DNA from: Candidatus Darwinibacter acetoxidans
GTDB taxonomy: Bacteria > Bacillota > Limnochordia > Darwinibacteriales > Darwinibacteriaceae
Assembly: GCA_041936745.1 (NCBI GenBank)
Contig: JBHGWS010000140.1
Span: 1-59,278, forward strand
Reading direction: 5' to 3'
Length of the DNA stretch: 59,278 bases
Of the stretch, positions 31,389-43,241 are shown in pieces (position 1 is the stretch's first letter; every line of letters begins with the position of its first letter). The translations under genes and the position numbers were made by a program. The notes beneath the pieces are model-generated. The model was not told the DNA's origin. It made no database searches and saw only the letters and a program-made list of their open reading frames with translations.

Positions 31389-32379
31389 TGCGGGTGCCCC
31401 CTTCCGTTTCGCATACATTTGTAATCACAACACCGAGCCTTGCGCCCAAGCGGCCCGGCGTGCCTTTAAATTTAGTCAGCGGCCCTATCTTTATATCAAG
31501 GGTTTCGTTTTTTTTGCGATCCAGTGGGATCACATCGCCCGCGGCCAAATTAAGCAGATCCTGCACTGAGACGGAAGTTTGGCCCAGCTCAACTTCAATT
31601 GGGATGACAGCTGAGCGGATCTTTTGTTTCAATACTTCGATCCGCGCCGGATCAGGTTGTTTTAAGGACTCAAACATACGGATCTGTGTCAGGTTTTTCA
31701 TAATGGGTTCCAAAGTACGGTGCGGTAAGCAGATACTGACCATATCCGCCTGCTCGTTTAATTCCAACCTCATGGTGACCAGGGCGATGACTTCTCTTTC
31801 AGGAATCAGTTGGAGAAATTGAGGATTGCTTTCCATGTAATCTAACTCAAATTCCAAGGCGCTGACATCCCGCCACGCTTCTGACAAAAGGGCTGAGAAA
31901 ACACTGATTACCTGTTTTCGTAAAACAGCCGTTTCTATATCGGTGAGGCCCCTGCTGCGCCCCAAAGGCCTGCCGTCGCCGCCGCAGAGGCGGTCGTGTA
32001 AGAGAAATGCGATATCCGGCGTCAGCTGCATGATTGCATACCCTTCCAAGGGGTGGACCTTAAAAACGCTGAGTACGGACGGATTGGGGAGTGAGCTGAC
32101 AAAGTCGCCAAAGGTGAGCTGTTCAACGGTGTGCACCCTCAGGTCTACTTGGTGCCTGAGTTTGGCCGTCATTAAAACCCCGTAGCTTCTGGTAAATTGT
32201 TCGTGAATGCGCTCTAGGGCCCTCAGATGCTCTTTTGAGAACTTATTTGGCCTAGTGAAATCATACAGCGGATCTTCATCGCCGGCGGCTTCAATTTCTT
32301 CCTCACCGTCCGGTTCGGAAGCGGCCTTAATCAACATGTCAATTTCTTCCTGTGATAAAATGTCATGCACAAAACTCAC
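31381..32379 (-). CDS. fliM: Flagellar motor switch protein FliM
   Basis: LSQEEID, YDF.RPNKFSKE and ESNPQF motifs; C-terminal SpoA domain. Confidence 0.95.
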   Translation of the reverse strand: MSFVHDILSQEEIDMLIKAASEPDGEEEIEAAGDEDPLYDFTRPNKFSKEHLRALERIHEQFTRSYGVLMTAKLRHQVDLRVHTVEQLTFGDFVSSLPNPSVLSVFKVHPLEGYAIMQLTPDIAFLLHDRLCGGDGRPLGRSRGLTDIETAVLRKQVISVFSALLSEAWRDVSALEFELDYMESNPQFLQLIPEREVIALVTMRLELNEQADMVSICLPHRTLEPIMKNLTQIRMFESLKQPDPARIEVLKQKIRSAVIPIEVELGQTSVSVQDLLNLAAGDVIPLDRKKNETLDIKIGPLTKFKGTPGRLGARLGVVITNVCETEGGTRSE

Positions 32380-32438
32380 CTCCCGGGTTCATTTAAATAA
32401 GAGGGTATCCCTCCCTTGAGGGAATCCCCTCTCTAACA

Positions 32439-32466
32439 ATATCGGCAGGTATTAGCCATTTCTTGA
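32439..32466 (-). promoter_or_regulatory. Sigma-D (sigma-28)-like promoter upstream of fliM
   Basis: Minus strand TCAAG-15 bp-GCCGATAT (perfect -10 element). Confidence 0.65.
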
Positions 32467-32469
32467 GGT

Positions 32470-32946
32470 TTATTCTGCTGCGGAAACTTTTTCAGTGGGC
32501 AGGGATTCCAGTTGGATCTGTTCACTGCTGGTGAGGATTTTACCAACTTCCAATAGGATCAGTAAGCGATCGTTTAATTTTCCCACGCCTGCTAGGTAAT
32601 CGGCGCGCAAACCGGCAATACTCGTTGGCGGTGGTTCTATGGCATCTTCCGCCAGCCGCAAAGTCTCGGTCACAGCATCGACAATAAAGCCTACTAATTT
32701 ATCGTTAACCTCCAGAATGATGATCCTCGTCTCCTGCGTGTTTTCCTGCGCTTCAAGCCCAAAGCGCTTACGCAGGCAGATGACCGGTATGACCTCTCCC
32801 CTTAAGTTTGTGACCCCTTCGATAAAATCATCTACGTGGGGCAGGCGGGTAATGTGGCGGGGTTTAACGATTTCTCGCACATCCGTGATTTCAACGCCGA
32901 ATTCCTCATTATGCAAGCGGAAAACGACTAATTGCCTTTCTTCCAT
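32470..32946 (-). CDS. cheW: Chemotaxis coupling protein CheW
   Basis: QLVVF.L..EEFG and GVTNLRGEVIPV motifs; AAAGGGG RBS. Confidence 0.95.
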   Translation of the reverse strand: MEERQLVVFRLHNEEFGVEITDVREIVKPRHITRLPHVDDFIEGVTNLRGEVIPVICLRKRFGLEAQENTQETRIIILEVNDKLVGFIVDAVTETLRLAEDAIEPPPTSIAGLRADYLAGVGKLNDRLLILLEVGKILTSSEQIQLESLPTEKVSAAE

Positions 32947-32993
32947 GAAAATCCCCTTTCTCCAGGACAATCTGCACTAATACTTATAGCTTA

Positions 32994-33018
32994 TTTCTAC
33001 TTGTGCCAATGTTTTCCT
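32994..33018 (-). promoter_or_regulatory. Sigma-H-like promoter upstream of cheW
   Basis: Minus strand AGGA-17 bp-GAAA(T). Confidence 0.45.
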
Positions 33019-33037
33019 CCCTAATTTATTATATAAC

Positions 33038-33068
33038 AAAGCGGGGATAAAACAAAATTCCCCGCTTT
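33038..33068 (-). terminator. Terminator of the spoVA operon
   Basis: AAAGCGGGGA...TCCCCGCTTT inverted repeat. Confidence 0.7.
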
Positions 33069-33072
33069 TCCT

Positions 33073-33423
33073 TCATTTCTTTGGTTTACTGACTAAAGCT
33101 ATAATACTGCTGAAAATAATGGCTGCGGCAAGCCCCAAACCGGTAATTTCAAAAGCCCCCGTAAACAACCCTTCCCAGCCCAGCCGCTTTACCTCCGAGA
33201 CCATCCCTTTTGTGATCGAACTGCCAAAACCGAGCACGGGTACTAAAGCGCCGGCGCCGGCAAATTCCTGAAACGGCTCATAGAAGCCCAGGCCGTTTAA
33301 GACGGCGCCTAAAACTACTAAACCGACTAAGACGTGTGCCGGCGTCAGTTTAGTGGTATCCAACACCAGCTGGGCAAGAGCACAAATTGCCCCGCCCACT
33401 AAGAATGCGATGATAAACTCCAA
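33073..33423 (-). CDS. spoVAE: Stage V sporulation protein AE(b)
   Basis: AFLVGGAIC..AQ, LTPAH and FAGAGA.VP..GFG motifs. Confidence 0.93.
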   Translation of the reverse strand: MEFIIAFLVGGAICALAQLVLDTTKLTPAHVLVGLVVLGAVLNGLGFYEPFQEFAGAGALVPVLGFGSSITKGMVSEVKRLGWEGLFTGAFEITGLGLAAAIIFSSIIALVSKPKK

Positions 33424-33437
33424 GGCATCTCCTCCAA

Positions 33438-34442
33438 TTATGCTTCCAGGGCGATCGCATGCGCTATTGTGGGGATTGTCTCTCCCTGCAGGGCCGTAAT
33501 GGGGCTGAATAAAGCACCTGTGGCGATGACTAACGCCCGCTTGGCCCTGCCGGCCGCCAGCTGATTTAAAAGGTAGCCCAGTGTCGTTACGGCAACGCAG
33601 GCGGCACCGCTTCCCCCTGTGCCGGCGTTTTGCTTGCTATCGTAAATCATTGCCCCTCCATCCTGGAGGCGCTCCAAGCCGCTCATATTCTGTTTTTCGG
33701 CCAAAAGCTTCAGCATTTTACTTCCCTGCCTGCCTAAATCGCCGGTTAAGACAATATCGTAGTCCTCCATTCCGCGCCCCGTATCCGCCAGATGCTGTTT
33801 AAGGGTGGCAAAGGCGGCCGGGGCCATGGCGCTGCCCATATCATTGACATCTTTTAAGCCTTTATCCACAACGATGCCAAATGTTGCATCTGTCAGCCGG
33901 GGGCCTGCGCCGGCAAGGCCCAAGGCGGCCGCGGCCGCGCCGGTGACCGTATGGTGGTTTGTCGCTCTATGTTGGATGTTTAGCTCAATGGGGTAGCGAA
34001 ACTGCCGTTCCGCAGTTTGGTAATGGCTGGCCGTACCGATTAAAACCTTTTGGGCAAAATCCCCTTGAATAAGCAGGGCGCCTAAACCCAAGGCCGCGCC
34101 GAAAGTTGCACAGGCGGCATAGATGCCGAGAAAGGGAAGCGCGAGTGTTGCGGCATTAAAGGAGGATGTGACGATTTGGTTTAAAAGATCCCCGGCGATG
34201 AAAAACTGAAAATCTTGCGGCTTTAAATTTGCCTCTTCCATAAGCTTAAGAATCGCCTTCTCCAGCATCAGCCTTTCGGTCTTTTCCGGTGTCTTCTGCC
34301 CTAAATTATCATCCGGCAAAATCTCGTTAAAATCGCTGCCCAAAGGCCCCCTGCCTTCCATAGGCCCTACTAGGCTGTAGCTTCCTTCAAACCTGGGCTG
34401 TTTGCTGAAAGTTAGGGTTTGTAAGCCAAGGTGGTTTTGCAC
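33438..34442 (-). CDS. spoVAD: Stage V sporulation protein AD
   Basis: EG.GPL, AGDLLNQ, AERQFRYP, MG.AMAPAA, TGDLG and GGSG motifs. Confidence 0.95.
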   Translation of the reverse strand: MQNHLGLQTLTFSKQPRFEGSYSLVGPMEGRGPLGSDFNEILPDDNLGQKTPEKTERLMLEKAILKLMEEANLKPQDFQFFIAGDLLNQIVTSSFNAATLALPFLGIYAACATFGAALGLGALLIQGDFAQKVLIGTASHYQTAERQFRYPIELNIQHRATNHHTVTGAAAAALGLAGAGPRLTDATFGIVVDKGLKDVNDMGSAMAPAAFATLKQHLADTGRGMEDYDIVLTGDLGRQGSKMLKLLAEKQNMSGLERLQDGGAMIYDSKQNAGTGGSGAACVAVTTLGYLLNQLAAGRAKRALVIATGALFSPITALQGETIPTIAHAIALEA

Positions 34443-34452
34443 ACACTACCTC

Positions 34453-34893
34453 CTAAAATAAACCGAGAATCAGTGCCTTTAAAACGGTCACAAAAAAGCC
34501 GGCCAAGACTCCGTAAACTATCACCGGGCCCGCGATTGTAAACATCCTGGCGCCCATGCCCAGAAGCAGCCCTTCCCGGCGAAATTCCATTGCCGCGGAT
34601 GCAATCGTGTTGGCAAAACCGGTGATGGGCACTGCGGCTCCCGCCCCGGCTTTTTCTGCAATTTCATCGTAGATGCCGAAACCTGTCAAAACAGTCCCCA
34701 CAAAGATCATTGCCGCCAAGGTGACGGCTGCCGCTTCGTTTTTTGTTGTTTCCAAGATTTCCGCTCCGTTTAAAACAAGTTGGCCGAAGGCGCAGAATAA
34801 GCCGCCGACTAAAAAAGCCCACGCCATATTACTGACTAAGGGCACTTTCGGAGTATTTTGATTTACCAATTTCTGATAGTCTTTTGGTTTCAT
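34453..34893 (-). CDS. spoVAC: Stage V sporulation protein AC
   Basis: AFLVGG, AGAGAAVPITGFAN and MFTIAGPVIVYG motifs. Confidence 0.95.
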   Translation of the reverse strand: MKPKDYQKLVNQNTPKVPLVSNMAWAFLVGGLFCAFGQLVLNGAEILETTKNEAAAVTLAAMIFVGTVLTGFGIYDEIAEKAGAGAAVPITGFANTIASAAMEFRREGLLLGMGARMFTIAGPVIVYGVLAGFFVTVLKALILGLF

Positions 34894-34917
34894 ACTGTTC
34901 ATCCCCTTCACCTTTCT

Positions 34918-34946
34918 TATTATGTTAAAAGGGATGAAAAATATGC
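34918..34946 (-). promoter_or_regulatory. Sigma-G promoter of spoVAC-D-E
   Basis: Minus strand GCATA-17 bp-CATAATA; spoVA is a known sigma-G operon. Confidence 0.75.
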
Positions 34947-34952
34947 TTAAAC

Positions 34953-34984
34953 AAAAAGCGGTTTCCGCACTGAGCGAAAACCGC
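34953..34984 (-). terminator. Terminator of the exbB-SLH operon
   Basis: GCGGTTT..AAACCGC hairpin followed by a T run on the minus strand. Confidence 0.7.
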
Positions 34985-35001
34985 CTGCCATATTTTAGAA
35001 T

Positions 35002-36084
35002 CTAATTGCCCAGGCCCCCCATTACAGCAATCACTACCCCGACCGCGGCAACTGCCAAAGCAACTGTAGTCATAGTTTTGGATGATTTTAATTCTTTTTC
35101 GGCCGTTTCCCGGTAAGATTCGAACTCTTCTTCCAGCTCGCTAATCTGCCGTTCCAAGCGCTTTTCCCTGATCAAGGCCGCGTTAACCTGCACATTAAGA
35201 TCGGAGATCAGCTGATCGCGCAGCTCCTCCAAGAGCTCATCGGTGCCGTGCAGGGTTAAAAAGTCTTTTTCCAGGCTTGCCAGATCTTGGCCCGCCTGCT
35301 CTAACCGGCCCGTAACCTCGCTCACTTTTTGTGCCTCCCGCTGCAGGCGGATGGCTAAGGTCTGCAGATCTTTTTCCAATTCCAAATTACGCTGCCCCAG
35401 CGTTTGGATGCTTTTTTCAATGTCATCTTCCATTTTCAGCTGAAGGGCCGCAATGACGATTTCCTTTTCTTCTTTCCAATTATTTAAGTACTGGAGATCC
35501 TGTTCCTGCTCACGCAGTTCTTTTTCTAATTCGATGACGGCTTGGGTGATTGCCTCTATTTCTACTTTGTAATCTACCAGATCTTCTTTTTGGACGCCAA
35601 CATGGGATTCAAGTTGGCTGATTGCTTCTAAAGCCTCTTCCATCCTGGCACCCAATTCTATCTGGCTTGCCCCTACCAGGCGGACACGCTCTTCCACTGC
35701 AGCCATGCTTTGGCGGACGAAGGCCACATCCTCATCCAAGGACTCCCGGGCTTGATACCAGAGTGCTAATTCCGCCTCGAATTCATGGTAAAGCTGTTTG
35801 ATTAAATCTAAATCTTCCGTGGTTCCTTTGACTTTGCCCGCTTCGATCTCTTCTAAGATTTGGGCTAAGGCAACTGCCAAAGTAAAGCGGTTAACCGCCC
35901 GGTCCCCTTGAAAGGTCCCATCTTCGTAAACCTGCAGGTAGCCTCTGTTGACTAAGGTGACAACGGCCCGGTACGCCCAGTGATCCGGAGTAATATCCGT
36001 CACTTTGGCCAATACGGCCGATGTGCCCACTAAGTTGAAAAGCAAAACCATAATCAGTCCGAAAACCAGCCATCTTTTTTCCAT
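35002..36084 (-). CDS. Secreted SLH-domain protein with a long coiled coil and C-terminal hydrophobic anchor (Omp-alpha-like)
   Basis: Signal peptide ending AVLA; single SLH (DITPDHWAYRAV..L..RG....EDGTF.G...VNR); about 250 aa Glu/Leu heptad-rich region; tail TMTTVALAVAAVGVVIAVMGG. Confidence 0.85.
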   Translation of the reverse strand: MEKRWLVFGLIMVLLFNLVGTSAVLAKVTDITPDHWAYRAVVTLVNRGYLQVYEDGTFQGDRAVNRFTLAVALAQILEEIEAGKVKGTTEDLDLIKQLYHEFEAELALWYQARESLDEDVAFVRQSMAAVEERVRLVGASQIELGARMEEALEAISQLESHVGVQKEDLVDYKVEIEAITQAVIELEKELREQEQDLQYLNNWKEEKEIVIAALQLKMEDDIEKSIQTLGQRNLELEKDLQTLAIRLQREAQKVSEVTGRLEQAGQDLASLEKDFLTLHGTDELLEELRDQLISDLNVQVNAALIREKRLERQISELEEEFESYRETAEKELKSSKTMTTVALAVAAVGVVIAVMGGLGN

Positions 36085-36102
36085 AAATAAGCCTCCTCAC
36101 CG

Positions 36103-38160
36103 TTAAGGTAGAATAGTAATTTCTTTTTCGACAACAGAAAAGCTGACGGCCTGCCCATCTTTATCCCAAACTTGCGCCCGTTCGCCGGCAATCCGAGCGG
36201 TACCGGGGCTTTTGGCCCGGAAATCGATTTTCATAAGTGTGCCGTAAGAAAGGCCCAAGTAGTTTTCAAACCCCCGATCCCCCCGGGCGGCCGTAATTTT
36301 ACCGGAGGCATTATCAATTTTCGGCATCTGCCACGGAAAAAGCTGAGGAGGGCGCACACTATCGTCAACAAAGAGTGTGCCTATGCTGATATCCAAAATA
36401 TCCAGTTCGATTTCCAAAAGATCCGGATCAAAGGTCAAATCCAACTCCGCTGCCACAAATTCTTTGATATTGGTTGCCCAAACTTCCACGGAAAAAATGT
36501 CGCCAACCTTAACCGGTTCTTTCTCGGGCCCTTTCAGCCAGATCTTGGGCTTTAACTCCGGCAGGTAAATTGAGTTGGCGCGGGCCGCACTGTCTGACTG
36601 AAACTTCACCTCTAAAGAGTAGTAAAGTTGGAGCATTTCAGCAATTTCGCTTTCCAAAATCTCCCCGGTGGGCACAAGAAGCCAGGTAAATTCCGCTTCC
36701 TCGCCCGGTTCGATGGGCCAGAGGAATTTCCTGGCTCTTTGGCCCGGACCCAAGCGTAAGCCAATGGGGTGTGTCAGCTCCGTGACAACTCCGTAAGCTG
36801 TCGCCCCTCCCTCATTTTTTATGGTCCCTTTTACCTCGAAAAAGGGTGGATGATACTTTTCGTCTTTGATGCCCAAAGCAACAGGGCCCTCTAACCCGGG
36901 CGGGCTCAACTTTGCCGGGCTGACGATTGATACATCGCGCGTTACCTTCGAAGGCTCGCTGTTTGTTGCGGAAACAATAACTTCGTAAGTTAGGCTGCCG
37001 GCAATCCTGCTGTCCGCTAAAAGCTGCCAGCCGGTTTGAATCGTCTCGCCTACTTCTAAATTGCCTAAAGCTTTGATGGCATCTTCGGCGCTGCCTACGA
37101 GTTTTAAGCCGGGCGGCAGTTTAATCTCGGCCTGCACATCCATGGCTTTACCCGACCCATCATTTTCAATATAAGCGATGACGGGGAAAGTCTGGAAACC
37201 TTCTGCATCGGCCGTGATTTGGTATTGTGCCGTTACGCCCAAAATCAAATCACCCGAAGTGATCGTCACCCCGCCTAAGCCGTAGTAAGAGACATAACTG
37301 CGGGACTCGCCGGGCGCTAAGGCTTTTTGATTCCAAAAAAGAGCAATGGCGCTGTCCAGTTCAAACTCGCCTTTGCGCTTGAAATCGCGGTAAGGCTCAA
37401 AATCGAATTCCCACAGATCATCAGCCAAGCTGCCCCAGTTCGTAAAATAAACTCTGTCGGGGACAGTTATATCCGGGCCTTTTAAGGTCCCCTGCGAAAT
37501 TACTTGGGGATTACTGATAGAATCGAAGGCCTGCCAAAATTCGGGCATTTCATAGGAATAAAAAACAGTGTCGGTAAAAATCTCCCGCTCCATGGCCCGA
37601 AAGGGTGCACCGTCATTAGAACCGAGCATGGTATCGAGCATCAGCCTTAGGCCCACCATGTGGGAGACTTCGTCCGTATTTTTCACCTGGTATTCAATGC
37701 GGGCCGTATCCATCAGGCCCGTTGTTGAGCTGCGGGCAAAATGTAAAATCTGCCAAACTTCCACAGGTCCCAGCTGCCAGGCACTTTGAATGGTGTTATC
37801 TACAACTGTGGGCTCTTGGATAACCCGGCCGTACTCGCCTGCCCTGCCTGCCCTGCGGTCCGTTTCACCGCCAAAAACCCAGTTTTTATTACCGATCCTA
37901 ACCGTCGTGTAGGATGTCCAAGGGTTGTCGCCCCCGTAGATTAAATGCTTGTTGTGGTCTGTGTCCCTCTGGGGATCGCCGCCTGTTGTCCGCACGGAAA
38001 AACGGCCCGCATTCGGCCCGGAATCGTTAACCACAATGCGGATGTACTCGTTTTCCAAGGAAACCGGCGGGCCTATTTCGGCAGAAGATGCCGCGCCGGC
38101 TAAAAGCGTAACTAACAGGCTTAAGAGGGCCGTACAGGCCAAAAGTCTTTTCTTAGGCAT
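36103..38160 (-). CDS. Secreted multi-domain beta protein with Ig-like repeats and a C-terminal cohesin-like domain
   Basis: Signal peptide; two Ig/CARDB-like repeats (I.N.G...A..V...I.LP.GL, G.L..GE....W.L); C-terminal VKVGD.F.V.V.......A....L.FDP..L...G.L..I.F.AK.PG cohesin signature. Confidence 0.72.
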   Translation of the reverse strand: MPKKRLLACTALLSLLVTLLAGAASSAEIGPPVSLENEYIRIVVNDSGPNAGRFSVRTTGGDPQRDTDHNKHLIYGGDNPWTSYTTVRIGNKNWVFGGETDRRAGRAGEYGRVIQEPTVVDNTIQSAWQLGPVEVWQILHFARSSTTGLMDTARIEYQVKNTDEVSHMVGLRLMLDTMLGSNDGAPFRAMEREIFTDTVFYSYEMPEFWQAFDSISNPQVISQGTLKGPDITVPDRVYFTNWGSLADDLWEFDFEPYRDFKRKGEFELDSAIALFWNQKALAPGESRSYVSYYGLGGVTITSGDLILGVTAQYQITADAEGFQTFPVIAYIENDGSGKAMDVQAEIKLPPGLKLVGSAEDAIKALGNLEVGETIQTGWQLLADSRIAGSLTYEVIVSATNSEPSKVTRDVSIVSPAKLSPPGLEGPVALGIKDEKYHPPFFEVKGTIKNEGGATAYGVVTELTHPIGLRLGPGQRARKFLWPIEPGEEAEFTWLLVPTGEILESEIAEMLQLYYSLEVKFQSDSAARANSIYLPELKPKIWLKGPEKEPVKVGDIFSVEVWATNIKEFVAAELDLTFDPDLLEIELDILDISIGTLFVDDSVRPPQLFPWQMPKIDNASGKITAARGDRGFENYLGLSYGTLMKIDFRAKSPGTARIAGERAQVWDKDGQAVSFSVVEKEITILP

Positions 38161-38176
38161 AAATTCGCCAACCTCC

Positions 38177-39112
38177 TTAGGGTGCATCCTGCGGTTTCAT
38201 CAGGCCGTAGCTCACCGAGGGGACAAATTCTTCCCTGGTATACGTATGTTTAACCTCAACCTCATAATCAAAATCGTGTTCCGGCCAGGGCGCCATCTCC
38301 GCTTCGTATTTCGCCTGGGCGTCCAAATCCTCATGGCCGGAAGATTGAGTCGTTATGACCTCCTGCAGCTGTCCTGAGGCGGTAACACGGACTGTAGTGA
38401 TAACCGTCCCTTCTTTTCCTTCGTGTGCTGCATCTTTCGGATATATCGGATTACCGCCACCGGGATATAAGCTGAAGCCGCCGGGTAAAGGTGCCGGTGC
38501 CGGCGGTGCGCTTTCAGCTTCCCCTTCGCCCGACTGAGCCAGGCCGGGAGCATCGGCTTCTCCTTGAGTCCCTTCTCCCGAACCGGTTGTGTCGGCTTGG
38601 CTTGCCGGAGTGCCCGAATCCTCAGCCGCTTCAATCTCTTTATCCTCTTCATCTATTGCCAATTCCGGCCCTGTTTCACTCGTCATCAGTTCCCCTTCCC
38701 CGAAAAGAGGAGGTTGTTCTTCCACCGGCGATTCCTGCACTTCGGGCGGATCCGGCTGTGTCGGTGTTAAAGGCCTGCTCCGCTCCACCTGAGGTTCTTC
38801 AACCGCGGGGATTTCCGCGGGGACGGGCGCTGTGGCCTCTGCCTGTGGTGTTTCCTCTTCAACGGGGCGCGGTTCGGTAACCCGAGGTGCCGCCGTTTGG
38901 GAAAGGCGGTCCGTGATAGGCGAATAACGCTGGCTGACGGACGTTTCCACATGCATTACTTGGATAACACCGCCGCCGGTCATACCCGGGACATCTGAGG
39001 GTGTTAGGAGAGAATGAAAATCCGGGAATGTTAAAAATAAGATGGCATGAAGAACCACAGAGATTAAAATAAATTTATTTAACCTCGGTTCATCACCGTA
39101 AGGGTTGTACAC
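38177..39112 (-). CDS. tonB: TonB/TolA-like energy transducer
   Basis: N-terminal TM with S-x3-H (ISVVLH), long acidic Pro/Glu linker, TonB_C (P.YP..A...G.EGTV...V.V...G.....SSG...LD). Confidence 0.85.
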   Translation of the reverse strand: MYNPYGDEPRLNKFILISVVLHAILFLTFPDFHSLLTPSDVPGMTGGGVIQVMHVETSVSQRYSPITDRLSQTAAPRVTEPRPVEEETPQAEATAPVPAEIPAVEEPQVERSRPLTPTQPDPPEVQESPVEEQPPLFGEGELMTSETGPELAIDEEDKEIEAAEDSGTPASQADTTGSGEGTQGEADAPGLAQSGEGEAESAPPAPAPLPGGFSLYPGGGNPIYPKDAAHEGKEGTVITTVRVTASGQLQEVITTQSSGHEDLDAQAKYEAEMAPWPEHDFDYEVEVKHTYTREEFVPSVSYGLMKPQDAP

Positions 39113-39130
39113 ATAATTCTCTCCTTTCTT

Positions 39131-39535
39131 TTAGGATTCGTGTTCCACAGCTAAACCCAATTTATAGCCGCCGACGCTGCGTACGTGATCAAGCGCCGCA
39201 ATGACGTATTCGTAGCGGACCTCTTTATCTGCTTTAACGATCACAAAAATCTCCGGGTTGACCTCGAGGCGTTCCGCCAGCCGGCTGCGCAGTTCAGCTC
39301 CGGTCATCCTTCTGCCGCCGACGTAGAAGGCACCGGATTTGTCCACGGAAATCTCGAAACTGGTGCTCTGCTGGGGGCTGCCGCTTACCGCTTTCGGCAG
39401 TTCTATGTCCATACCCAGCGGTGTTGTCTTAATTGTTGTGAAGATCATAAAAAATACCAGTAAGAAAAAGACAATGTCGATCATAGGCAGAATATTCGGG
39501 CCGCGGCTTTTTTTGCTTACCCGCTTTAAATTCAT
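39131..39535 (-). CDS. exbD: ExbD/TolR family protein
   Basis: NILPMIDIVFFLLVFFMI (conserved Asp), LPKA and ADKEVRY motifs. Confidence 0.92.
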   Translation of the reverse strand: MNLKRVSKKSRGPNILPMIDIVFFLLVFFMIFTTIKTTPLGMDIELPKAVSGSPQQSTSFEISVDKSGAFYVGGRRMTGAELRSRLAERLEVNPEIFVIVKADKEVRYEYVIAALDHVRSVGGYKLGLAVEHES

Positions 39536-40149
39536 TAGAATTCACCTCTGGAATCAAGGACGTTCAAAAGCTCCGTGCCCTGTTTGTTCATGTCGGCTAT
39601 TTGGCGGTCGATGATGCCGCTTAAATAGGCGTGAAGCGCCATGGTGGGAATGGCGATAATCAGCCCGGCAGCGGTGGTTATCAAAGCCTCCGCAATACCG
39701 GCACTGAGGGCCGATGCCTGTGCCACGCCTTCCAAGGCGGCCATGATGTTAAAACTTTTAATAATGCCTGTTACTGTGCCTAAAATTCCCAACAAAGGAG
39801 AAATCATGGCTACGGTGTCCAAGACATTCATCCTTCGTTCCATTTTGTAAATTTCTGCTTGGCCGACAGTATTCATGTGTTCTTTAATTTCTTCCCTATC
39901 TCTGTCATAATAGGCGATGCCTGCAGCCAAAGTTGCAGCCAGCGGGCCCCTTGCCTTTTTGGCAATCTGCATGGCTTCAAGCACTTTGCCCTGGCCTAAA
40001 GAAAGTTTGATGTCTTCTACCAGATCCTCTGCGTCAGCTCTGGAACGCAGCAGGTACCAGAGCCTTTCTACACCGACCGCAACGGCAAAGATAGAACAAA
40101 GAAGTAAAGGAATCATTACTGGACCACCAAGTACGAAAACTTCGAGCAT
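39535..40149 (-). CDS. exbB: ExbB/TolQ/MotA proton channel protein
   Basis: GGPVM.PL...ER, PLLGILGTV.GII and GIAEALITTAAGL..AIP motifs; GGAGGGG RBS before ATG 40149. Confidence 0.93.
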   Translation of the reverse strand: MLEVFVLGGPVMIPLLLCSIFAVAVGVERLWYLLRSRADAEDLVEDIKLSLGQGKVLEAMQIAKKARGPLAATLAAGIAYYDRDREEIKEHMNTVGQAEIYKMERRMNVLDTVAMISPLLGILGTVTGIIKSFNIMAALEGVAQASALSAGIAEALITTAAGLIIAIPTMALHAYLSGIIDRQIADMNKQGTELLNVLDSRGEF

Positions 40150-40196
40150 CGATACCCCTCCAATTAGCTTAGCTGATAGAAATATGCCTTGTACAG

Positions 40197-40221
40197 ATTC
40201 GACATAGTACCCCGGAATCCT
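40197..40221 (-). promoter_or_regulatory. Sigma-H-like promoter with an overlapping Spo0A box
   Basis: Minus strand AAGGATTCCGGGGTACTATGTCGAAT = AGGA-17-GAAT; TGTCGAA (40204-40198) is a perfect 0A box. Confidence 0.6.
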
Positions 40222-40280
40222 TGCTCCCAGATATACTTTACATTGATATGGTTCGTGAGAAAAAGGGGCTTTTTGGGGAG

Positions 40281-40312
40281 AAAGAAAAAAGAACCGCAGA
40301 ATCTGCGGTTCT
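40281..40312 (-). terminator. Terminator after the GNAT gene
   Basis: AGAACCGCAG..CTGCGGTTCT hairpin plus a T tract on the minus strand. Confidence 0.75.
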
Positions 40313-40757
40313 AGACTACTTTTTTGTTTTCCCCCGGCCTGGTCAAGAATTCTTCTTTCGTGATCCCCATTAAATAAATAACCTTTTCTCCGCCGCCTGC
40401 CACTTTTCGCTGCAGGCGCCACTCCTTTTTAAAGCCTGCTTTTTTGTAACAGCGCAGGGCGGGGAAGTTAGTGGCGTAAACCCTCAGATAGACGCGGTTG
40501 AGGTTCATTTTTGTGAAGGCATGCTCTAAAAGTGTAAGCACGGCATCGGTCCCATAACCTTTGTTTTGCAGCCCGGCTTTAGGAATTTCAATCTTTAATT
40601 CGGCCTCGCCGCTCCGCCAAGCGATATGGTCTAATTCTATTTCCCCGATCGGTTTGTCCTCCAAAAGAACATCGTAGTGGACCCGGTAGCGGTGTGGCTT
40701 TGTGGCTTTTAACGCAATTTTCGCTCCCCTGATTAAAGACATTTCTCCAACTCCCAT
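40311..40757 (-). CDS. GNAT (RimJ/RimL-like) N-acetyltransferase
   Basis: QNKGYGTDA, F..MNLNRV.L.V...N..A.RCY.K.GF..E motifs. Confidence 0.85.
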   Translation of the reverse strand: MGVGEMSLIRGAKIALKATKPHRYRVHYDVLLEDKPIGEIELDHIAWRSGEAELKIEIPKAGLQNKGYGTDAVLTLLEHAFTKMNLNRVYLRVYATNFPALRCYKKAGFKKEWRLQRKVAGGGEKVIYLMGITKEEFLTRPGENKKVV

Positions 40758-40845
40758 AAAATTGAAATTAGCGACTTCAAGGCGTTTGAGAGATTCGTTA
40801 AATATGTTCTGGGGATAAGGGCCTAAGCCTGCAGGGAAATAAATC

Positions 40846-41658
40846 CTATCGCCGCCGGGCTAACCGATCGACCCAGCTTTGGGGGATTGTAAATTTACCC
40901 AAGAAGACCTCATCTTTGCCGCCCGGCCCGTGGCAGTCGGAACCGCCTGTCGGCGTCAGCTGCCATTGAGCCGCCAACTGCAGGAAAAAGTCCACCTGTT
41001 TTTGATCGTGGCTGGAGTGGACTACCTCCAGGCCGGCCAGGCCGGCATCAACTAAGGCGGGTAAAACCGCCAGGTCTTTGATTAAGCCCGGATGGGCTAA
41101 CACGGGTACGCCGTTTGCCTTTAAAATGCTTTTTACTGCCTGCGCGGGGTTTAGCTTATGCCTGGCTACATAAGCGGGGGCCTGCGGCGCTAGGTACTTT
41201 TCAAATGCCTCCTTCTTAGTCTGCACATATCCTCTGCTTTCTAGAGCAGAAGCGATATGGCTGCGGCTGACCACTCTTCCGTGGCCGAACTGCTCTACAT
41301 CGCCGTAAGAAATCCAAAGGCCCAGGTTATTCAATTTTTCCACGATTGACTCCGCCCGGGTAATCCGGTCACGGCGGGATTTTTCCAAAAGTTCTTGTAA
41401 GCCGGCATTGTTTTCATCGATCCAATAACCGAGAATGTGGATCTCTTCTCCTTGGGCGGAAAGGGTACTCAGCTCAATCCCGCTGATTACTTCCAACCCG
41501 GCAGGGGCATGTTTTTTGGCCTCGGCGATGCCTTGGGTAGTGTCGTGGTCCGTGATGGCAATTATCCTCAAAGAGTGTTCAAAAGCTTTTTGGACAACTT
41601 CTTTAGGTGTCCAAGTACCATCTGATTCTGTAGTGTGCAGATGTAGATCGGCTGCCAA
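40846..41658 (-). CDS. PHP-domain metal-dependent phosphoesterase (TrpH/YciV-like)
   Basis: DLHLHT..SDG, AITDHD, GIELS, HILGY, LAHP and GGSDCHG motifs. Confidence 0.92.
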   Translation of the reverse strand: MAADLHLHTTESDGTWTPKEVVQKAFEHSLRIIAITDHDTTQGIAEAKKHAPAGLEVISGIELSTLSAQGEEIHILGYWIDENNAGLQELLEKSRRDRITRAESIVEKLNNLGLWISYGDVEQFGHGRVVSRSHIASALESRGYVQTKKEAFEKYLAPQAPAYVARHKLNPAQAVKSILKANGVPVLAHPGLIKDLAVLPALVDAGLAGLEVVHSSHDQKQVDFFLQLAAQWQLTPTGGSDCHGPGGKDEVFLGKFTIPQSWVDRLARRR

Positions 41659-41671
41659 AATACCACCTTCT

Positions 41672-42367
41672 TTAAAGTTCAAAGCGCAGTTGGCGGACAA
41701 TACGGGCTTCGATGCGGGAAACCTGCGCTTGGGAAATACCCAGCGTTTTGGCCACTTCCACTTGGCTTTTCTCCGCAAAGTACCTGAGTAAAATCAGCCG
41801 CCTGTCTTCCGCCGCCAGTTTTTGCAGGGCCTGTTTTAATAAAAAGCGCTCTTGATCGGGATTGACTGCCAAGAGTTCTTGGAATTCCGGACGTTCTTCT
41901 TCGCCGGCAACCTTTTCCTGCAGATAAAATACGGGAGCGACTGCCTCCAGGGCCGTCACCACCTCTTCTGCGGCGATCTGCAAATGTTCCGCCAGCTCCG
42001 AAATAGTGGGGGCCCTGCCCCACTTTTGCGTCAGCTGATCTTTGGCGCTGATTATTTCAGAAGCCAGCCTCCGCAAAGACCGGGCCACTTTGACGGGGGA
42101 AGTTTTGCGCAGCTGCTGTTTGATTTCCCCCATAATTTTAGGCACGGCGTAAGTTGAAAAACGGACATCGTAGCTTAAATCAAAATCCTTAATTGCCTTA
42201 ACCAGCCCTAAGCTGCCTATTTGAACTAAATCCTCGTATTCTATGCCTCTGTTTAAAAACCGCCTGACGATACTGAAAACCAAGGGGAGGTTTTCTTCTA
42301 CAAGGCGGTTTAAAGCTTTCCCATCACCTGCTTGCGAGCGGGCAATCAGCTTTCTGGTTTTATCCAT
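41672..42367 (-). CDS. sigF: Sporulation sigma factor F
   Basis: EDL.QIG.LGL.KAI..FD..Y.VRFSTYAVP.I.GEI and SQ.QVSR motifs; follows spoIIAA-AB. Confidence 0.93.
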   Translation of the reverse strand: MDKTRKLIARSQAGDGKALNRLVEENLPLVFSIVRRFLNRGIEYEDLVQIGSLGLVKAIKDFDLSYDVRFSTYAVPKIMGEIKQQLRKTSPVKVARSLRRLASEIISAKDQLTQKWGRAPTISELAEHLQIAAEEVVTALEAVAPVFYLQEKVAGEEERPEFQELLAVNPDQERFLLKQALQKLAAEDRRLILLRYFAEKSQVEVAKTLGISQAQVSRIEARIVRQLRFEL

Positions 42368-42375
42368 GGCTGCAC

Positions 42376-42807
42376 CTAACTTTCCCGCCGCTTGACCTTT
42401 TTTATCATTTTCACTTTTGTACCTTCATTTGGTGTGGATGAGACCAAGACTTTATCCATGTATTCGAACATAAAGGTGAAACCTAACCCCATCCGCTCTT
42501 CGGGTAGGCTGCTGTAACCCGTTTCCTGCGCCTTTTCAATATCTTTAATGCCCCGGCCGAAGTCTTCCACAATTATTTCCAAAACTTCGCCGGCAGAAGA
42601 TGCGGAAACTTGAATAGTGCCTTCTTTTAAACTGTAACCATGAATGACCGAATTAGAAACAGCCTCGGAGACGGCCACTTTAATATCTTCCAGTTCATCC
42701 AGCGTCCAATCGAGCTGTGCAGCAAAAACCGCAACAGATGTCCGGGCGAAAGCCACGTTGCGCGTATCAGCGGGAAACTCCAGTTTGATCCAATTTGTCC
42801 CTGCCAT
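42376..42807 (-). CDS. spoIIAB: Anti-sigma-F factor SpoIIAB
   Basis: N..FAR, D.K.AVSEAV.N..IHGY and ER.G.GF..M motifs. Confidence 0.94.
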   Translation of the reverse strand: MAGTNWIKLEFPADTRNVAFARTSVAVFAAQLDWTLDELEDIKVAVSEAVSNSVIHGYSLKEGTIQVSASSAGEVLEIIVEDFGRGIKDIEKAQETGYSSLPEERMGLGFTFMFEYMDKVLVSSTPNEGTKVKMIKKVKRRES

Positions 42808-42820
42808 TAAAGTCGCCTCC

Positions 42821-43159
42821 TTAGACCCTTTTAAGAATTTCTTGCGTAGAACTGCCAAATTCCGCTATTTTCTCCATACCGGAAAGTTTGAGTATGCGCT
42901 TGATTCGGGGGTTAGCCTGCACAAAGTAAAGGCGGCCGCCCCTGGCTTCCAGTTCCCGGTAGCGCCCCAATATTACTCCCAAACCGGAGCTGTCGATGAA
43001 AGACATTTCTTTGGCGTTAATAATTAAATGTTTCAGCTGGGGCCGGGCAGCGAAAGATCTGGCAACATCCTTTTTGAAAGCAGGCGAAGTATGCAGATCC
43101 AATTCTCCGCTCAGCGTGGCTATGAGTGCTTGTCCCGCTATTTCCAGGCTGTAGTGCAC
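42821..43159 (-). CDS. spoIIAA: Anti-anti-sigma-F factor SpoIIAA
   Basis: STAS domain GELD.H...F.DSSGLGVILGRY. Confidence 0.94.
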   Translation of the reverse strand: MHYSLEIAGQALIATLSGELDLHTSPAFKKDVARSFAARPQLKHLIINAKEMSFIDSSGLGVILGRYRELEARGGRLYFVQANPRIKRILKLSGMEKIAEFGSSTQEILKRV

Positions 43160-43191
43160 GGTTTTCCCTCCCGTTTTGATTTAGGGACACT

Positions 43192-43224
43192 GTTCTAGGC
43201 AGGGCGGCCGTTTACCTGTCGACA
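43192..43224 (-). promoter_or_regulatory. Sigma-H-like spoIIA promoter with a near-0A box
   Basis: Minus strand AGGT-18-GAAC; palindrome TGTCGACA (one mismatch to TGNCGAA) next to the -35; spoIIA is known to be sigma-H/Spo0A dependent. Confidence 0.5.
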
Positions 43225-43241
43225 AAAGGGCCCGAAACTTA

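What the first reader, a model, noticed from the sequence alone, without database searches (positions are those of the whole stretch)
35002..40221. Receptor-less ExbB-ExbD-TonB motor in an operon with a cohesin protein and an Omp-alpha-like tether: candidate new cell-envelope machine in a sporulating Firmicute
Seen: five co-directional genes with gaps of 18 bp or less, bounded by terminators on both sides (exbB, exbD, tonB, a ~685-aa secreted Ig/cohesin protein, an SLH/coiled-coil protein). The motor residues are intact (ExbD Asp in PMID, ExbB GTV.G and TTAAGL, TonB S-x3-H). No beta-barrel TonB-dependent receptor, TolB or Pal is encoded here or elsewhere in the window. Known: Exb/Ton/Tol motors transmit proton-motive force across a periplasm, and diderm Firmicutes tether their outer membrane with SLH proteins (OmpM) rather than Pal/Lpp. 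Inference: this could be a Tol-Pal analogue. The motor would pull on or redistribute an SLH tether through the cohesin protein, for envelope invagination or remodelling in division or sporulation, rather than importing nutrients.
Basis: partly seen in the sequence, partly recalled or inferred. Interest (0 to 1): 0.85.

Follow-up and report, generated by a model that had tools for sequence, protein, structure and literature searches.

The report
Tol-like envelope motor of Terrabacteria diderms
A five-gene operon in a two-membraned, spore-forming Firmicute couples a proton-driven ExbB/ExbD motor and its own TonB-like arm to a secreted sandwich-fold protein and a wall-binding coiled-coil anchor, and may do the job that Tol-Pal does in classical Gram-negative bacteria.

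Summary
Five tightly packed minus-strand genes lie between two terminators. They encode ExbB, ExbD, a TonB-like protein, a 685-aa secreted protein, and a signal-peptide/SLH/coiled-coil protein with a C-terminal membrane helix. The genome is a Limnochordia MAG with BamA and no TonB-dependent receptor found.

The module is not a local oddity:
- The fourth protein occurs in 92 of 95 Limnochordia genomes, and gene order was kept in all 36 loci fetched.
- The same order recurs in Margulisbacteria, Armatimonadota and other MAGs (54 of 61 loci with enough upstream DNA).
- In a 401-genome phylum sample, all 85 genomes with the orthologue have BamA. None of the 301 BamA-less genomes has it.
- Genomes that do carry receptors encode a second TonB, usually with its own ExbB-ExbD beside the receptor. 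The module's TonB is therefore a dedicated paralogue.
- A controlled complex prediction puts the TonB C-domain on loops found only in module-type copies of the fourth protein (0.74, best control 0.00).

Best reading: a Tol-like, receptor-independent envelope machine of OmpM-type diderms. It is not sporulation-specific and not a cellulosome part. Its physiological role is inferred, not shown. No description was found in the searched literature.

The parts
40290..40312 (-). Terminator-like hairpin (10 pairs) plus T-run directly after the upstream GNAT gene. It marks the upstream edge of the operon.
39535..40149 (-). exbB/tolQ-like stator subunit, 204 aa. ATG at 40149 follows a GGAGGGG Shine-Dalgarno.
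   Evidence: Pfam PF01618 3e-30. NCBIfam TolQ 96 bits and ExbB 57 bits, both below cut-off. PDB TolQ and ExbB chains about 1e-9 to 5e-10. Start codon.
39131..39535 (-). exbD/tolR-like stator subunit, 134 aa, with the membrane Asp (PMIDIV). Its start overlaps the exbB stop.
   Evidence: Pfam PF02472 5e-30. PDB ExbD 5.7e-14, TolR 5e-7. Translation.
38177..39112 (-). Dedicated TonB/TolA-like transducer, 311 aa. It has an N-terminal helix with SVVLH, a Pro/Glu-rich linker, and a TonB_C domain whose last third is divergent.
   Evidence: TonB_C 8.8e-11, profile positions 2-59 of 79. Only TonB_C in the genome. PDB TonB only 0.014.
36103..38160 (-). Secreted 685-aa protein: signal peptide, galactose-mutarotase-like beta-supersandwich (about residues 33-295), two Ig-like domains, C-terminal cohesin-like domain. 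It is the predicted partner of the TonB C-domain.
   Evidence: AF2 pLDDT 88.2 for the full protein. N-domain pLDDT 88.6, pTM 0.90. VIA Z 16.8 / rmsd 2.8 / 218 aligned to 8rf9_A. Foldseek. Complex prediction. Start codon.
35002..36084 (-). 360-aa protein: signal peptide, single SLH domain, about 250-aa coiled coil, C-terminal hydrophobic helix. It resembles Omp-alpha, or an OmpM stalk with a helix in place of the barrel.
   Evidence: SLH 3.6e-6. por_somb N-terminal match, residues 26-124. The C-terminal helix is conserved in 36 of 36 Limnochordia homologues.
34956..34986 (-). Terminator-like hairpin (13 pairs) plus T-run after the SLH gene. It marks the downstream edge of the operon.

Best explanation
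The five genes encode one receptor-independent, proton-driven envelope machine of OmpM-type (Terrabacteria) diderms. It works like Tol-Pal without being a member of it.

Proposed parts and steps:
- ExbB/ExbD form the inner-membrane stator. This follows from family membership.
- A dedicated TonB/TolA-like paralogue reaches across the periplasm. Its paralogy is shown by comparative genomics.
- Its C-domain docks on two loops of the N-terminal supersandwich domain of the secreted fourth protein. This is predicted, with controls.
- The fifth protein is probably a trimeric coiled coil with a membrane helix at one end and, in Bacillota and Margulisbacteria, a peptidoglycan/polymer-binding SLH tip at the other. 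It supplies the wall or membrane anchor. This is inferred from its architecture.
- Force from the motor is proposed to move or release the fourth protein relative to that anchor or to other SLH tethers. This would keep outer membrane, wall and inner membrane coupled during growth and division. This step is inferred and untested.

In Limnochordia the operon merely sits between the spoIIA and spoVA regions.
For: 1. Operon anatomy and domains.

2. Near-universal and single-copy. The fourth protein occurs in 92 of 95 Limnochordia genomes, 69 of 70 high-quality ones.

3. Order ExbB-ExbD-TonB-X-SLH. It is seen in 33 of 36 fetched Limnochordia loci from 16 families. The other 3 are cut by contig ends but keep X-SLH.

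4. Other phyla. 398 species genomes encode a relative. Of the 79 best loci, 61 have at least 2.6 kb upstream. Of those, 54 have ExbB and ExbD upstream, 3 have one of them, and 4 have neither. A TonB_C gene lies directly upstream, and a signal-peptide/(SLH)/coiled-coil/C-terminal-helix gene directly downstream.

5. Tied to the diderm state. In a 401-genome phylum sample the orthologue is in 85 genomes, all 85 with Omp85/BamA. 15 BamA-positive genomes lack it. 0 of 301 BamA-negative genomes have it. Related genomes are not independent.

6. Independent of receptors.
- The receptor barrel is over cut-off in 11 of 95 Limnochordia and in 0 of 27 genomes of the own family.
- 5 of 5 receptor-less genomes checked (3 of them closed) have exactly one TonB_C, the module's.
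- In 4 of 5 receptor-bearing Limnochordia, and in 4 of 5 receptor-bearing genomes of other phyla, a second TonB_C gene lies within a few kb of a receptor gene.
- 8 of those 10 genomes have a second ExbD. It is adjacent to that TonB in 7. Each of the 8 fetched second loci also holds an ExbB.

7. Complex prediction, TonB C-domain with the fourth protein.
- Score 0.74 (runs 0.75, 0.74, 0.74); best of 3 controls 0.00.
- The tool's mark was reached by 58 of 80 solved complexes and 2 of 110 mismatched pairs. These counts hold only roughly, because my own alignments were used.
- Runs share at least 87% of contacts. Partner pLDDT is at least 79.

8. The contact segments 101-103 and 262-267 are deleted in 3 of 3 differently built paralogues (P0252, P0262, P0264). 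Those paralogues keep the other invariant residues.

9. No dockerin was found in 0 of 26 genomes, so the protein is not a cellulosome scaffold.
Against: - No experiment exists. The physiological role is inferred from analogy and distribution.
- The motor does not meet TolQ/TolR or ExbB/ExbD equivalog cut-offs.
- In an ExbB+ExbD tree the module motors are not one clade (3 changes). They do not group with E. coli TolQR.
- The fourth protein is not a beta-propeller, and no Pal-like lipoprotein is present.
- The link between the fourth and fifth proteins was not tested.
- Which membrane holds the fifth protein's C-terminal helix is unknown.
- Its length varies from 136 to 1447 aa. That fits poorly with a fixed periplasm-spanning strut.
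- 15 of 100 BamA-positive genomes in the sample lack the orthologue, so it is not universal among diderms of that phylum.
- Margulisbacteria and Armatimonadota genomes do have receptors. G050 and G485 have only one ExbD. Sharing of the stator with import cannot be excluded there.
- The complex score is a model's confidence, not a measurement.
Confidence: 0.55

Rival explanations
1. An ordinary Ton import system. Its outer-membrane partner would be unrecognised: a divergent receptor or an OmpM-type porin. The fourth protein would be a periplasmic or surface glycan-binding accessory that hands substrate to it.
For: - TonB_C, ExbB and ExbD family matches.
- The N-domain has the carbohydrate-enzyme-associated galactose-mutarotase-like fold.
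- Its family-wide invariant residues, outside the predicted TonB contact, could form a ligand site.
- G050 and G485 have receptors but only one ExbD.
Against: - No receptor barrel or plug in this genome, and none over cut-off in 84 of 95 Limnochordia.
- Receptors, where present, mostly come with their own adjacent TonB and ExbB-ExbD.
- No barrel gene lies in the operon in any locus looked at.
- The predicted TonB contact is the fourth protein itself.
Confidence: 0.2
2. A sporulation-specific device of diderm Firmicutes. It would remodel the envelope during engulfment or convert the outer spore membrane, and be expressed with the flanking spoIIA/spoVA genes.
For: In Limnochordia the operon sits downstream of dacF-spoIIAA-spoIIAB-sigF. 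sigF lies upstream in 32 of the 33 loci that reach that far.
Against: - The module occurs with the same order in Margulisbacteria, Armatimonadota and Hebobacteria loci that show no spoIIA or spoVA neighbours.
- Those phyla are not known to sporulate (my own knowledge).
- spoVA is missing beside the module in 4 of the first 18 loci and in all 18 loci of the more distant families.
- Terminators separate the operon from both neighbours.
Confidence: 0.07
3. A cohesin-based surface scaffold, as in the database name 'cellulosome anchor protein', or an S-layer/adhesin anchor that happens to lie beside a Ton system.
For: - Cohesin Pfam match 28.7 bits against a cut-off of 24.1.
- Several database homologues are named 'cellulosome anchor protein'.
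- An SLH protein lies next door.
Against: - Dockerin_1 was found in 0 of 26 genomes, own plus 25 relatives.
- The cohesin part is the least conserved. Pfam did not detect it in the Margulis-type orthologues.
- Strict linkage to ExbB-ExbD-TonB across phyla.
- Predicted TonB contact.
Confidence: 0.05
4. A PMF-driven machine with a different output. Candidates: transport of lipid, glycan or protein to the outer membrane; or a stator in which the fifth protein only anchors the motor to the wall, as MotB/TolR do through their own domains.
For: - The same comparative evidence as for the best explanation. It shows a dedicated machine but not its output.
- Tol-Pal itself is now linked to outer-membrane lipid homeostasis (PMC11889096, search listing only).
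Against: No lipid-, LPS- or protein-transport family lies in the operon. Nothing else bears on it.
Confidence: 0.13

Closest known systems
Tol-Pal system (E. coli ybgC-tolQ-tolR-tolA-tolB-pal-cpoB)
   Same: - Same logic and gene order: two stator genes, a dedicated TonB/TolA-family transducer, an all-beta periplasmic partner, a wall-binding envelope protein (beside).
- Independent of TonB-dependent receptors.
- Coexists with separate Ton sets in receptor-bearing genomes.
- The stator scores somewhat higher against the TolQ/TolR models than against ExbB/ExbD in NCBIfam.
   Different: - All Tol equivalog scores are below cut-off.
- The partner is a mutarotase-like supersandwich plus Ig domains, not a TolB beta-propeller.
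- The anchor is an SLH/coiled-coil protein with a helical membrane segment, not an OmpA-like lipoprotein.
- The predicted contact is domain-to-loop, not shown to be an N-terminal peptide.
- The tree gives no TolQR affinity.
- Published surveys place Tol-Pal in Gracilicutes only (PMC12204202, passages).
Ton system (ExbB-ExbD-TonB with TonB-dependent transporters)
   Same: Family-level membership of the three inner-membrane proteins. Conserved ExbD Asp and TonB SxxxH.
   Different: - No receptor in this genome or in most of the class.
- The module's TonB is a separate paralogue from the receptor-linked one.
- In Limnochordia its C-domain matches only the first 59 of 79 profile positions.
Omp-alpha of Thermotoga, and the periplasmic stalk of OmpM/SlpA
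   Same: - The fifth protein has the Omp-alpha layout: N-terminal SLH, long coiled coil, C-terminal hydrophobic helix. The Omp-alpha layout is recalled, not tested here.
- Its first about 100 residues match the SLH-plus-stalk part of the SomB/OmpM-type porin model.
   Different: - No beta-barrel.
- Length ranges from 136 to 1447 aa.
- The SLH domain is absent by Pfam in the Armatimonadota copies.
- It is always encoded behind a motor.
- Homology to Omp-alpha itself was not tested.
Other non-import uses of TonB-like proteins: SjdR of Anabaena; GltG/GltJ of the Myxococcus gliding machine
   Same: These are precedents that TonB-like domains in diderms can serve envelope or septum architecture or motility rather than receptor gating. 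SjdR: PMC8262864, listing and passages. Glt: recalled only.
   Different: sjdR is reported as transcribed alone and has no such neighbours. The Glt partners are unrelated proteins.

Membership tests
Ton system | ExbB (MotA/TolQ/ExbB family) and ExbD proteins with the membrane Asp | tested here: met
   PF01618 3e-30 and PF02472 5e-30. The Asp in PMIDIV is visible. The ExbB/ExbD equivalog models are below cut-off.
Ton system | TonB with N-terminal anchor (SxxxH), Pro-rich linker and TonB_C domain | tested here: met
   TonB_C 42.5 bits against a cut-off of 24.6. SVVLH and the Pro/Glu-rich linker are visible. Only profile positions 2-59 of 79 are matched.
Ton system | TonB-dependent outer-membrane transporter (plug plus 22-strand barrel) as the energised partner | tested here: not met
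   0 matches to PF00593 and PF07715 in the genome, which is 92.76% complete. 11 of 95 in the class are over cut-off. Receptor-bearing genomes have a separate TonB beside the receptor.
Tol-Pal system | TolQ, TolR and TolA equivalogs | tested here: not met
   TolQ 96.2 bits against a cut-off of 221. TolR 69.9 against 127.3. tolA_full 26.4 against 59.45. No grouping with E. coli TolQR in the tree, which is itself inconclusive.
Tol-Pal system | TolB: periplasmic beta-propeller partner of TolA encoded after tolA | tested here: not met
   The gene after the TonB-like gene folds as supersandwich plus 2 Ig plus cohesin-like domains. TolB families were not searched genome-wide.
Tol-Pal system | Pal: OmpA-like peptidoglycan-binding outer-membrane lipoprotein | tested here: not met
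   The only OmpA-family match in the genome lies beside the second MotA_ExbB hit on C15, so it is MotB-like. The fifth gene is SLH/coiled coil.
Cellulosome scaffoldin / cohesin-dockerin system | Cohesin domain | tested here: met
   PF00963 28.7 bits against a cut-off of 24.1, residues 559-691.
Cellulosome scaffoldin / cohesin-dockerin system | Dockerin-bearing partner proteins in the genome | tested here: not met
   PF00404 found in 0 of 26 genomes, own plus 25 relatives.
OmpM-type tether | SLH domain plus coiled-coil stalk plus C-terminal beta-barrel porin | tested here: not met
   SLH and stalk match. The rest is coiled coil ending in one hydrophobic helix. No barrel was sought by a dedicated predictor.
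Omp-alpha-like proteins | N-terminal SLH, long coiled coil, C-terminal hydrophobic anchor | tested here: met
   The architecture is seen in the window protein and in 36 of 36 Limnochordia homologues. Sequence homology to Thermotoga Omp-alpha was not tested.

The most novel reading that the evidence does not exclude
This module is the Terrabacterial counterpart of Tol-Pal. It would be an ancient machine, inherited by OmpM-type diderms (Limnochordia and other diderm Bacillota, Margulisbacteria, Armatimonadota). Its dedicated TonB/TolA-like arm would pull on a supersandwich adaptor to reposition SLH-based tethers at division sites, and in Limnochordia perhaps at engulfing membranes. Its loss would go with loss of the outer membrane in monoderm Firmicutes.
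Probability: 0.35. Interest if true: 0.9.

Novelty: new variant of a known kind. Interest (0 to 1): 0.8.

Why it matters
Tol-Pal and Pal are reported only in Gracilicutes. OmpM is described as the tether of diderm Terrabacteria (passages of PMC12204202, and of 10.1101/2021.05.31.446380).

What energises and coordinates outer-membrane attachment and constriction in OmpM-type diderms is, as far as my searches show, undescribed. One survey states that among Firmicutes Ton systems were detected only in Negativicutes.

A conserved, receptor-independent ExbB-ExbD-TonB module that tracks BamA perfectly in a 401-genome sample would give that question a concrete, testable candidate. It would also give a new marker for diderm envelopes in uncultured lineages and a new class of TonB partner.

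Tried and rejected
- **Foldseek on the full 685-aa model.** It gave only generic multi-Ig matches (integrin legs, TM up to 0.26) and was uninformative.
- **ESM Atlas on the N-domain.** The nearest clusters are unnamed, so no lead.
- **ExbB+ExbD tree** (32 rows, 340 columns).
  - Deep branches are poorly resolved and the module motors are not one clade.
  - E. coli TolQR and ExbBD join each other by long branches.
  - One Armatimonadota row joins them.
  - It gives no evidence for or against an ancient split.
- **RNA**.
  - Four metatranscriptome runs (one study, at most 3 samples, kept as contigs) hold identical contigs over parts of all five genes.
  - Only the exbB/exbD junction is bridged (records 22 and 29).
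  - Several stretches of the operon and most of spoVA have no cover.
  - Contigs cannot show strand, ends or a single transcript, and DNA carry-over is possible. Co-transcription is therefore neither shown nor refuted.
- **Sporulation-type promoter.** A look by eye upstream of exbB, against consensus recalled from memory, gave no convincing match and was dropped.
- **The sigma-70 scan** found no more sites than shuffles did.
- **Earlier notes of this scan:** none near the locus.
- **LpxC** was not found in this genome. This was not pursued.
- **Negativicutes, Halanaerobiales, Thermotogota, Cyanobacteria, Deinococcota.** I could not target them. Only 80 of the 398 genome hits were shown and unnamed handles give no taxonomy.
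- **Literature.** Searches of the held library found no paper describing this module. They used combinations of the terms Limnochordia, TonB, outer membrane, diderm Firmicutes, ExbB, ExbD, OmpM, Terrabacteria, Tol-Pal, Tol, diderm, sporulation, cell division, outer membrane constriction, SLH, cohesin and Margulisbacteria. Subscription journals and supplements were not searchable.

Full report
**1. What is in the window**

Between a terminator-like hairpin after a GNAT gene (40312-40290) and another after the last gene (34986-34956) lie five minus-strand genes.
- exbB-like, 39535-40149. The ATG at 40149 follows GGAGGGG.
- exbD-like, 39131-39535. Its start overlaps the exbB stop.
- tonB-like, 38177-39112, 18 nt further on.
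- A secreted protein, 36103-38160. Its ATG follows AAGGAGGT, which overlaps the tonB stop. This gives 685 aa, as in the database gene call P0001.
- An SLH protein, 35002-36084, 18 nt further on.

Pfam gives MotA_ExbB 3e-30, ExbD 5e-30, TonB_C 8.8e-11, Cohesin 1.7e-6 and SLH 3.6e-6.

NCBIfam scores the stator higher against TolQ (96 bits) and TolR (70) than against ExbB (57) and ExbD (52). Every equivalog cut-off is missed. PDB sequence searches find TolQ and ExbB chains about equally for ExbB, ExbD ahead of TolR for ExbD, and TonB only at 0.014.

**2. The organism and its envelope genes**

Homologues of the fourth protein carry names such as Limnochordia bacterium, Limnochordales bacterium and Candidatus Darwinibacter.

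The window's genome is 92.76% complete in 145 contigs. It has:
- one Omp85/BamA;
- no TonB-dependent receptor barrel and no plug domain;
- one TonB_C, the one in the window;
- two MotA_ExbB genes, the second beside the only OmpA-family match, so MotA/MotB-like;
- three SLH genes;
- no LpxC match.

**3. Conservation within Limnochordia**

The fourth protein is found in 39 of 41 near relatives. It is in 92 of 95 genomes of the class, and in 69 of 70 high-quality ones. The misses are G028, G037 and G076. It is nearly always single-copy, at 40-63% identity.

I fetched 36 loci from 16 coded families.
- All 36 show the fourth gene followed by an SLH gene.
- 33 show ExbB and ExbD upstream, with a TonB-sized gene between them and the fourth gene.
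- The other three (L047, L051, L071) end at a contig edge.
- sigF with spoIIAA/AB lies upstream in 32 of those 33. L053 is the exception.
- spoVAC-D-E follows the operon in only 11 of the first 18 loci and in none of the 18 from more distant families.
- All 36 SLH proteins end in a hydrophobic helix. Their lengths run from 344 to 1447 aa.

**4. The fourth protein**

The AlphaFold model is confident (pLDDT 88.2). It shows a signal peptide, an N-terminal beta-sandwich domain, two Ig-like domains and a cohesin-like domain.

The N-domain is the best conserved part, at 53-77% identity across the class. Folded alone it gives pLDDT 88.6 and pTM 0.90.

It matches the galactose-mutarotase-like supersandwich:
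- VIA-align Z 16.8, rmsd 2.8, 218 aligned, to the corresponding domain of cyclic glucan synthase 8rf9_A.
- Z 16.7 to cellobiose phosphorylase 2cqs_A.
- Z about 15-16 to aldose-1-epimerase-like proteins.
- Foldseek agrees and also lists the YidC periplasmic domain.

No Pfam or NCBIfam model covers this domain. A profile of it finds 3330 cluster representatives at E <= 0.001 and 916 at E <= 1e-30. These include proteins of other builds: RHS repeats in P0252, PKD/Big_5 in P0264.

**5. The module outside Limnochordia**

One group of 620-650-aa proteins shares the same motifs and layout. One of them is named Candidatus Marinamargulisbacteria.

With that group as query, 398 species genomes encode a relative. 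The 79 best loci are titled Margulisbacteria, Armatimonadota, Candidatus Hebobacteria, UBP8, UBP13, Bacillota and 'bacterium'. A few carry other names that I did not verify.

- Of the 61 loci with at least 2.6 kb upstream, 54 have both ExbB and ExbD hits upstream, 3 have one, and 4 have neither: L095, L099, L101, L109.
- An ORF ending in a TonB-type C-domain lies directly upstream in nearly all. TonB_C is confirmed by Pfam for L079 (3.6e-14) and L118 (1.7e-24).
- The gene directly downstream encodes a small protein with a signal peptide, a coiled coil and a C-terminal helix.
  - It carries an SLH domain in a Margulisbacteria locus (L079, 8.2e-7) and in a UBP13 locus (L150, 4.6e-5). L089 has no Pfam match.
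  - It has no SLH match in the three Armatimonadota-type copies scanned.
- In the phylum of the Margulisbacteria genome G482, 44 of 121 sampled genomes have the orthologue.

So the five-gene layout is older than Limnochordia. It is not tied to sporulation genes.

**6. Link to the diderm state**

In a sample of 401 genomes of the window's phylum:
- The N-domain profile finds 98 genomes.
- 85 of them have strong hits (E <= 3e-101) in frames of about 640-850 aa. G337 and G180 have shorter frames.
- The other 13 have weaker hits, mostly in very long proteins.
- Omp85 is found in 100 genomes.
- All 85 orthologue carriers are Omp85-positive.
- 15 Omp85-positive genomes lack the orthologue; 8 of these belong to one coded family.
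- None of the 301 Omp85-negative genomes has it.

Relatives are not independent, so this is a pattern, not a statistic.

**7. Is the TonB meant for receptors?**

Receptor barrels over cut-off occur in 11 of 95 Limnochordia, and in none of the 27 genomes of the own family.

- Five receptor-less genomes, three of them closed, each have exactly one TonB_C gene, the module's.
- Five receptor-bearing Limnochordia were checked. Four have the module's TonB plus a second, better-scoring TonB_C within a few kb of the receptor gene. G065 shows one hit, not at the module.
- Five genomes of other phyla (G482-G486) have 1-3 receptors and exactly two TonB_C genes each. One is in the module. The other is beside a receptor in four of the five.
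- Eight of these ten genomes have a second ExbD. In seven it lies next to that second TonB.
- Each of the eight fetched second loci also holds an ExbB.

The carriers therefore keep two systems, as Proteobacteria keep Ton and Tol.

**8. Predicted contact**

I sent the TonB C-terminal 110 residues and residues 25-685 of the fourth protein. Each went as an alignment of 100 rows in the same locus order.

Results:
- Score 0.74 (runs 0.75, 0.74, 0.74). The best of 3 controls was 0.00.
- The tool's mark was reached by 58 of 80 solved complexes and 2 of 110 mismatched pairs. These counts hold only roughly, because my own alignments were used.
- The runs share at least 87% of contacts. The partner's pLDDT is at least 79.

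The contact residues are:
- On the fourth protein: 75-76, 79, 81-82, 101-103, 242, 262, 264-267, 269. These are invariant or nearly invariant positions.
- On the TonB domain: its YPK motif (22-25), and 28-29, 64-65, 68, 94-95.

In three paralogues of other build (P0252, P0262, P0264) the segments 101-103 and 262-267 are deleted. The other invariant residues of the domain are kept. The context of those paralogues is unknown.

This supports binding but does not show it. I know of no solved complex of a TonB domain with such a fold (recalled, not searched).

**9. Other tests**

- Dockerin is found in 0 of 26 genomes. The database name 'cellulosome anchor protein' is therefore not supported.
- An ExbB+ExbD tree is unresolved at depth and gives no TolQR affinity.
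- Metatranscriptome contigs from one study hold parts of all five genes. They bridge only the exbB/exbD junction and cannot prove transcription.

**10. Literature**

- PMC12204202, passages. Tol-Pal is confined to Gracilicutes. Ton systems are widespread. [quoted passage not shown]' Its supplements could not be read.
- 10.1101/2021.05.31.446380, passages. OmpM and Pal are markers of diderm Terrabacteria and Gracilicutes respectively.
- PMC10628300, passages. It mentions Limnochordia only for OmpM SLH residues.
- PMC5007114 has no occurrence of TonB, ExbB, ExbD, TolQ or Tol-Pal.
- PMC13018214, passages. It lists TonB-dependent receptors of Acetonema but not this module.
- PMC8262864, listing and passages. 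It describes SjdR, a TonB-like protein of Anabaena with a septal role. sjdR is reported as transcribed alone.
- Searches found no description of this module.

**11. Reading**

Shown:
- A dedicated, widely conserved five-gene module.
- Its restriction to BamA-bearing genomes in the sample.
- Its independence from receptors.

Predicted, with controls: the TonB C-domain contacts the fourth protein.

Inferred: a Tol-like role in coupling the envelope layers, and any action on the SLH protein.

I put 0.55 on the Tol-like, receptor-independent machine, 0.20 on import through an unrecognised partner, 0.13 on another output, 0.07 on a sporulation-specific role and 0.05 on a scaffold or adhesin reading.

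It is a new variant of the Ton/Tol kind. It is not a member of Tol-Pal.

Noticed in passing
window 31381-44387; loci L038-L055, L060-L077: Long conserved synteny across Limnochordia: dacF-spoIIAA-spoIIAB-sigF-(PHP)-GNAT-module. The PHP and GNAT genes stay between sigF and the module in most families.
   Followed up: partly
G000 whole genome: No LpxC match was found in this 92.76%-complete genome although BamA is present. Published passages describe Limnochordia as having LPS outer membranes. This lineage may differ, or the gene may be unassembled.
   Followed up: no
window 37261-38079 (N-domain of the fourth protein): The galactose-mutarotase-like N-domain has no Pfam or NCBIfam model, yet its profile finds 3330 cluster representatives. 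These include RHS-repeat, PKD/Big_5 and 'choice-of-anchor D' giant proteins. It is an unnamed, widespread extracytoplasmic domain family with about 16 invariant polar residues outside the predicted TonB contact.
   Followed up: partly
G040:C71, G070:C118, G071:C294 and several others: The match to the fourth protein contains one in-frame stop (TAG in three genomes of one genus, TGA or TAA in others). The match may run past the true start, or there may be a real interruption.
   Followed up: no
G016:C18:11627-13734; G031, G010: In a few genomes the fourth gene appears in two pieces on one contig or on two contigs. This could be a frameshift or an assembly break.
   Followed up: no
G000:C72 (L005 1417-3120) and G000:C89 (L007 1417-2568): There are two further SLH proteins in the genome. 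The C72 one (open frame 735 aa) matches the SLH-plus-stalk start of the SomB/OmpM-type porin model (41 bits, below cut-off) and may be the OmpM of this organism. The C89 one has no NCBIfam match.
   Followed up: partly
L095, L099, L101: In three related 'bacterium' loci the fourth-protein homologue, still followed by an SLH-like hit in two, is preceded by an unrelated NAD(P)-binding-like gene instead of ExbB-ExbD-TonB. The module may be split or rearranged in that lineage.
   Followed up: no
coded family f45 and others: Fifteen BamA-positive genomes of the phylum sample lack the orthologue. Eight of them belong to one coded family, which includes closed genomes. This is a diderm lineage that either lost the module or uses something else.
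   Followed up: no
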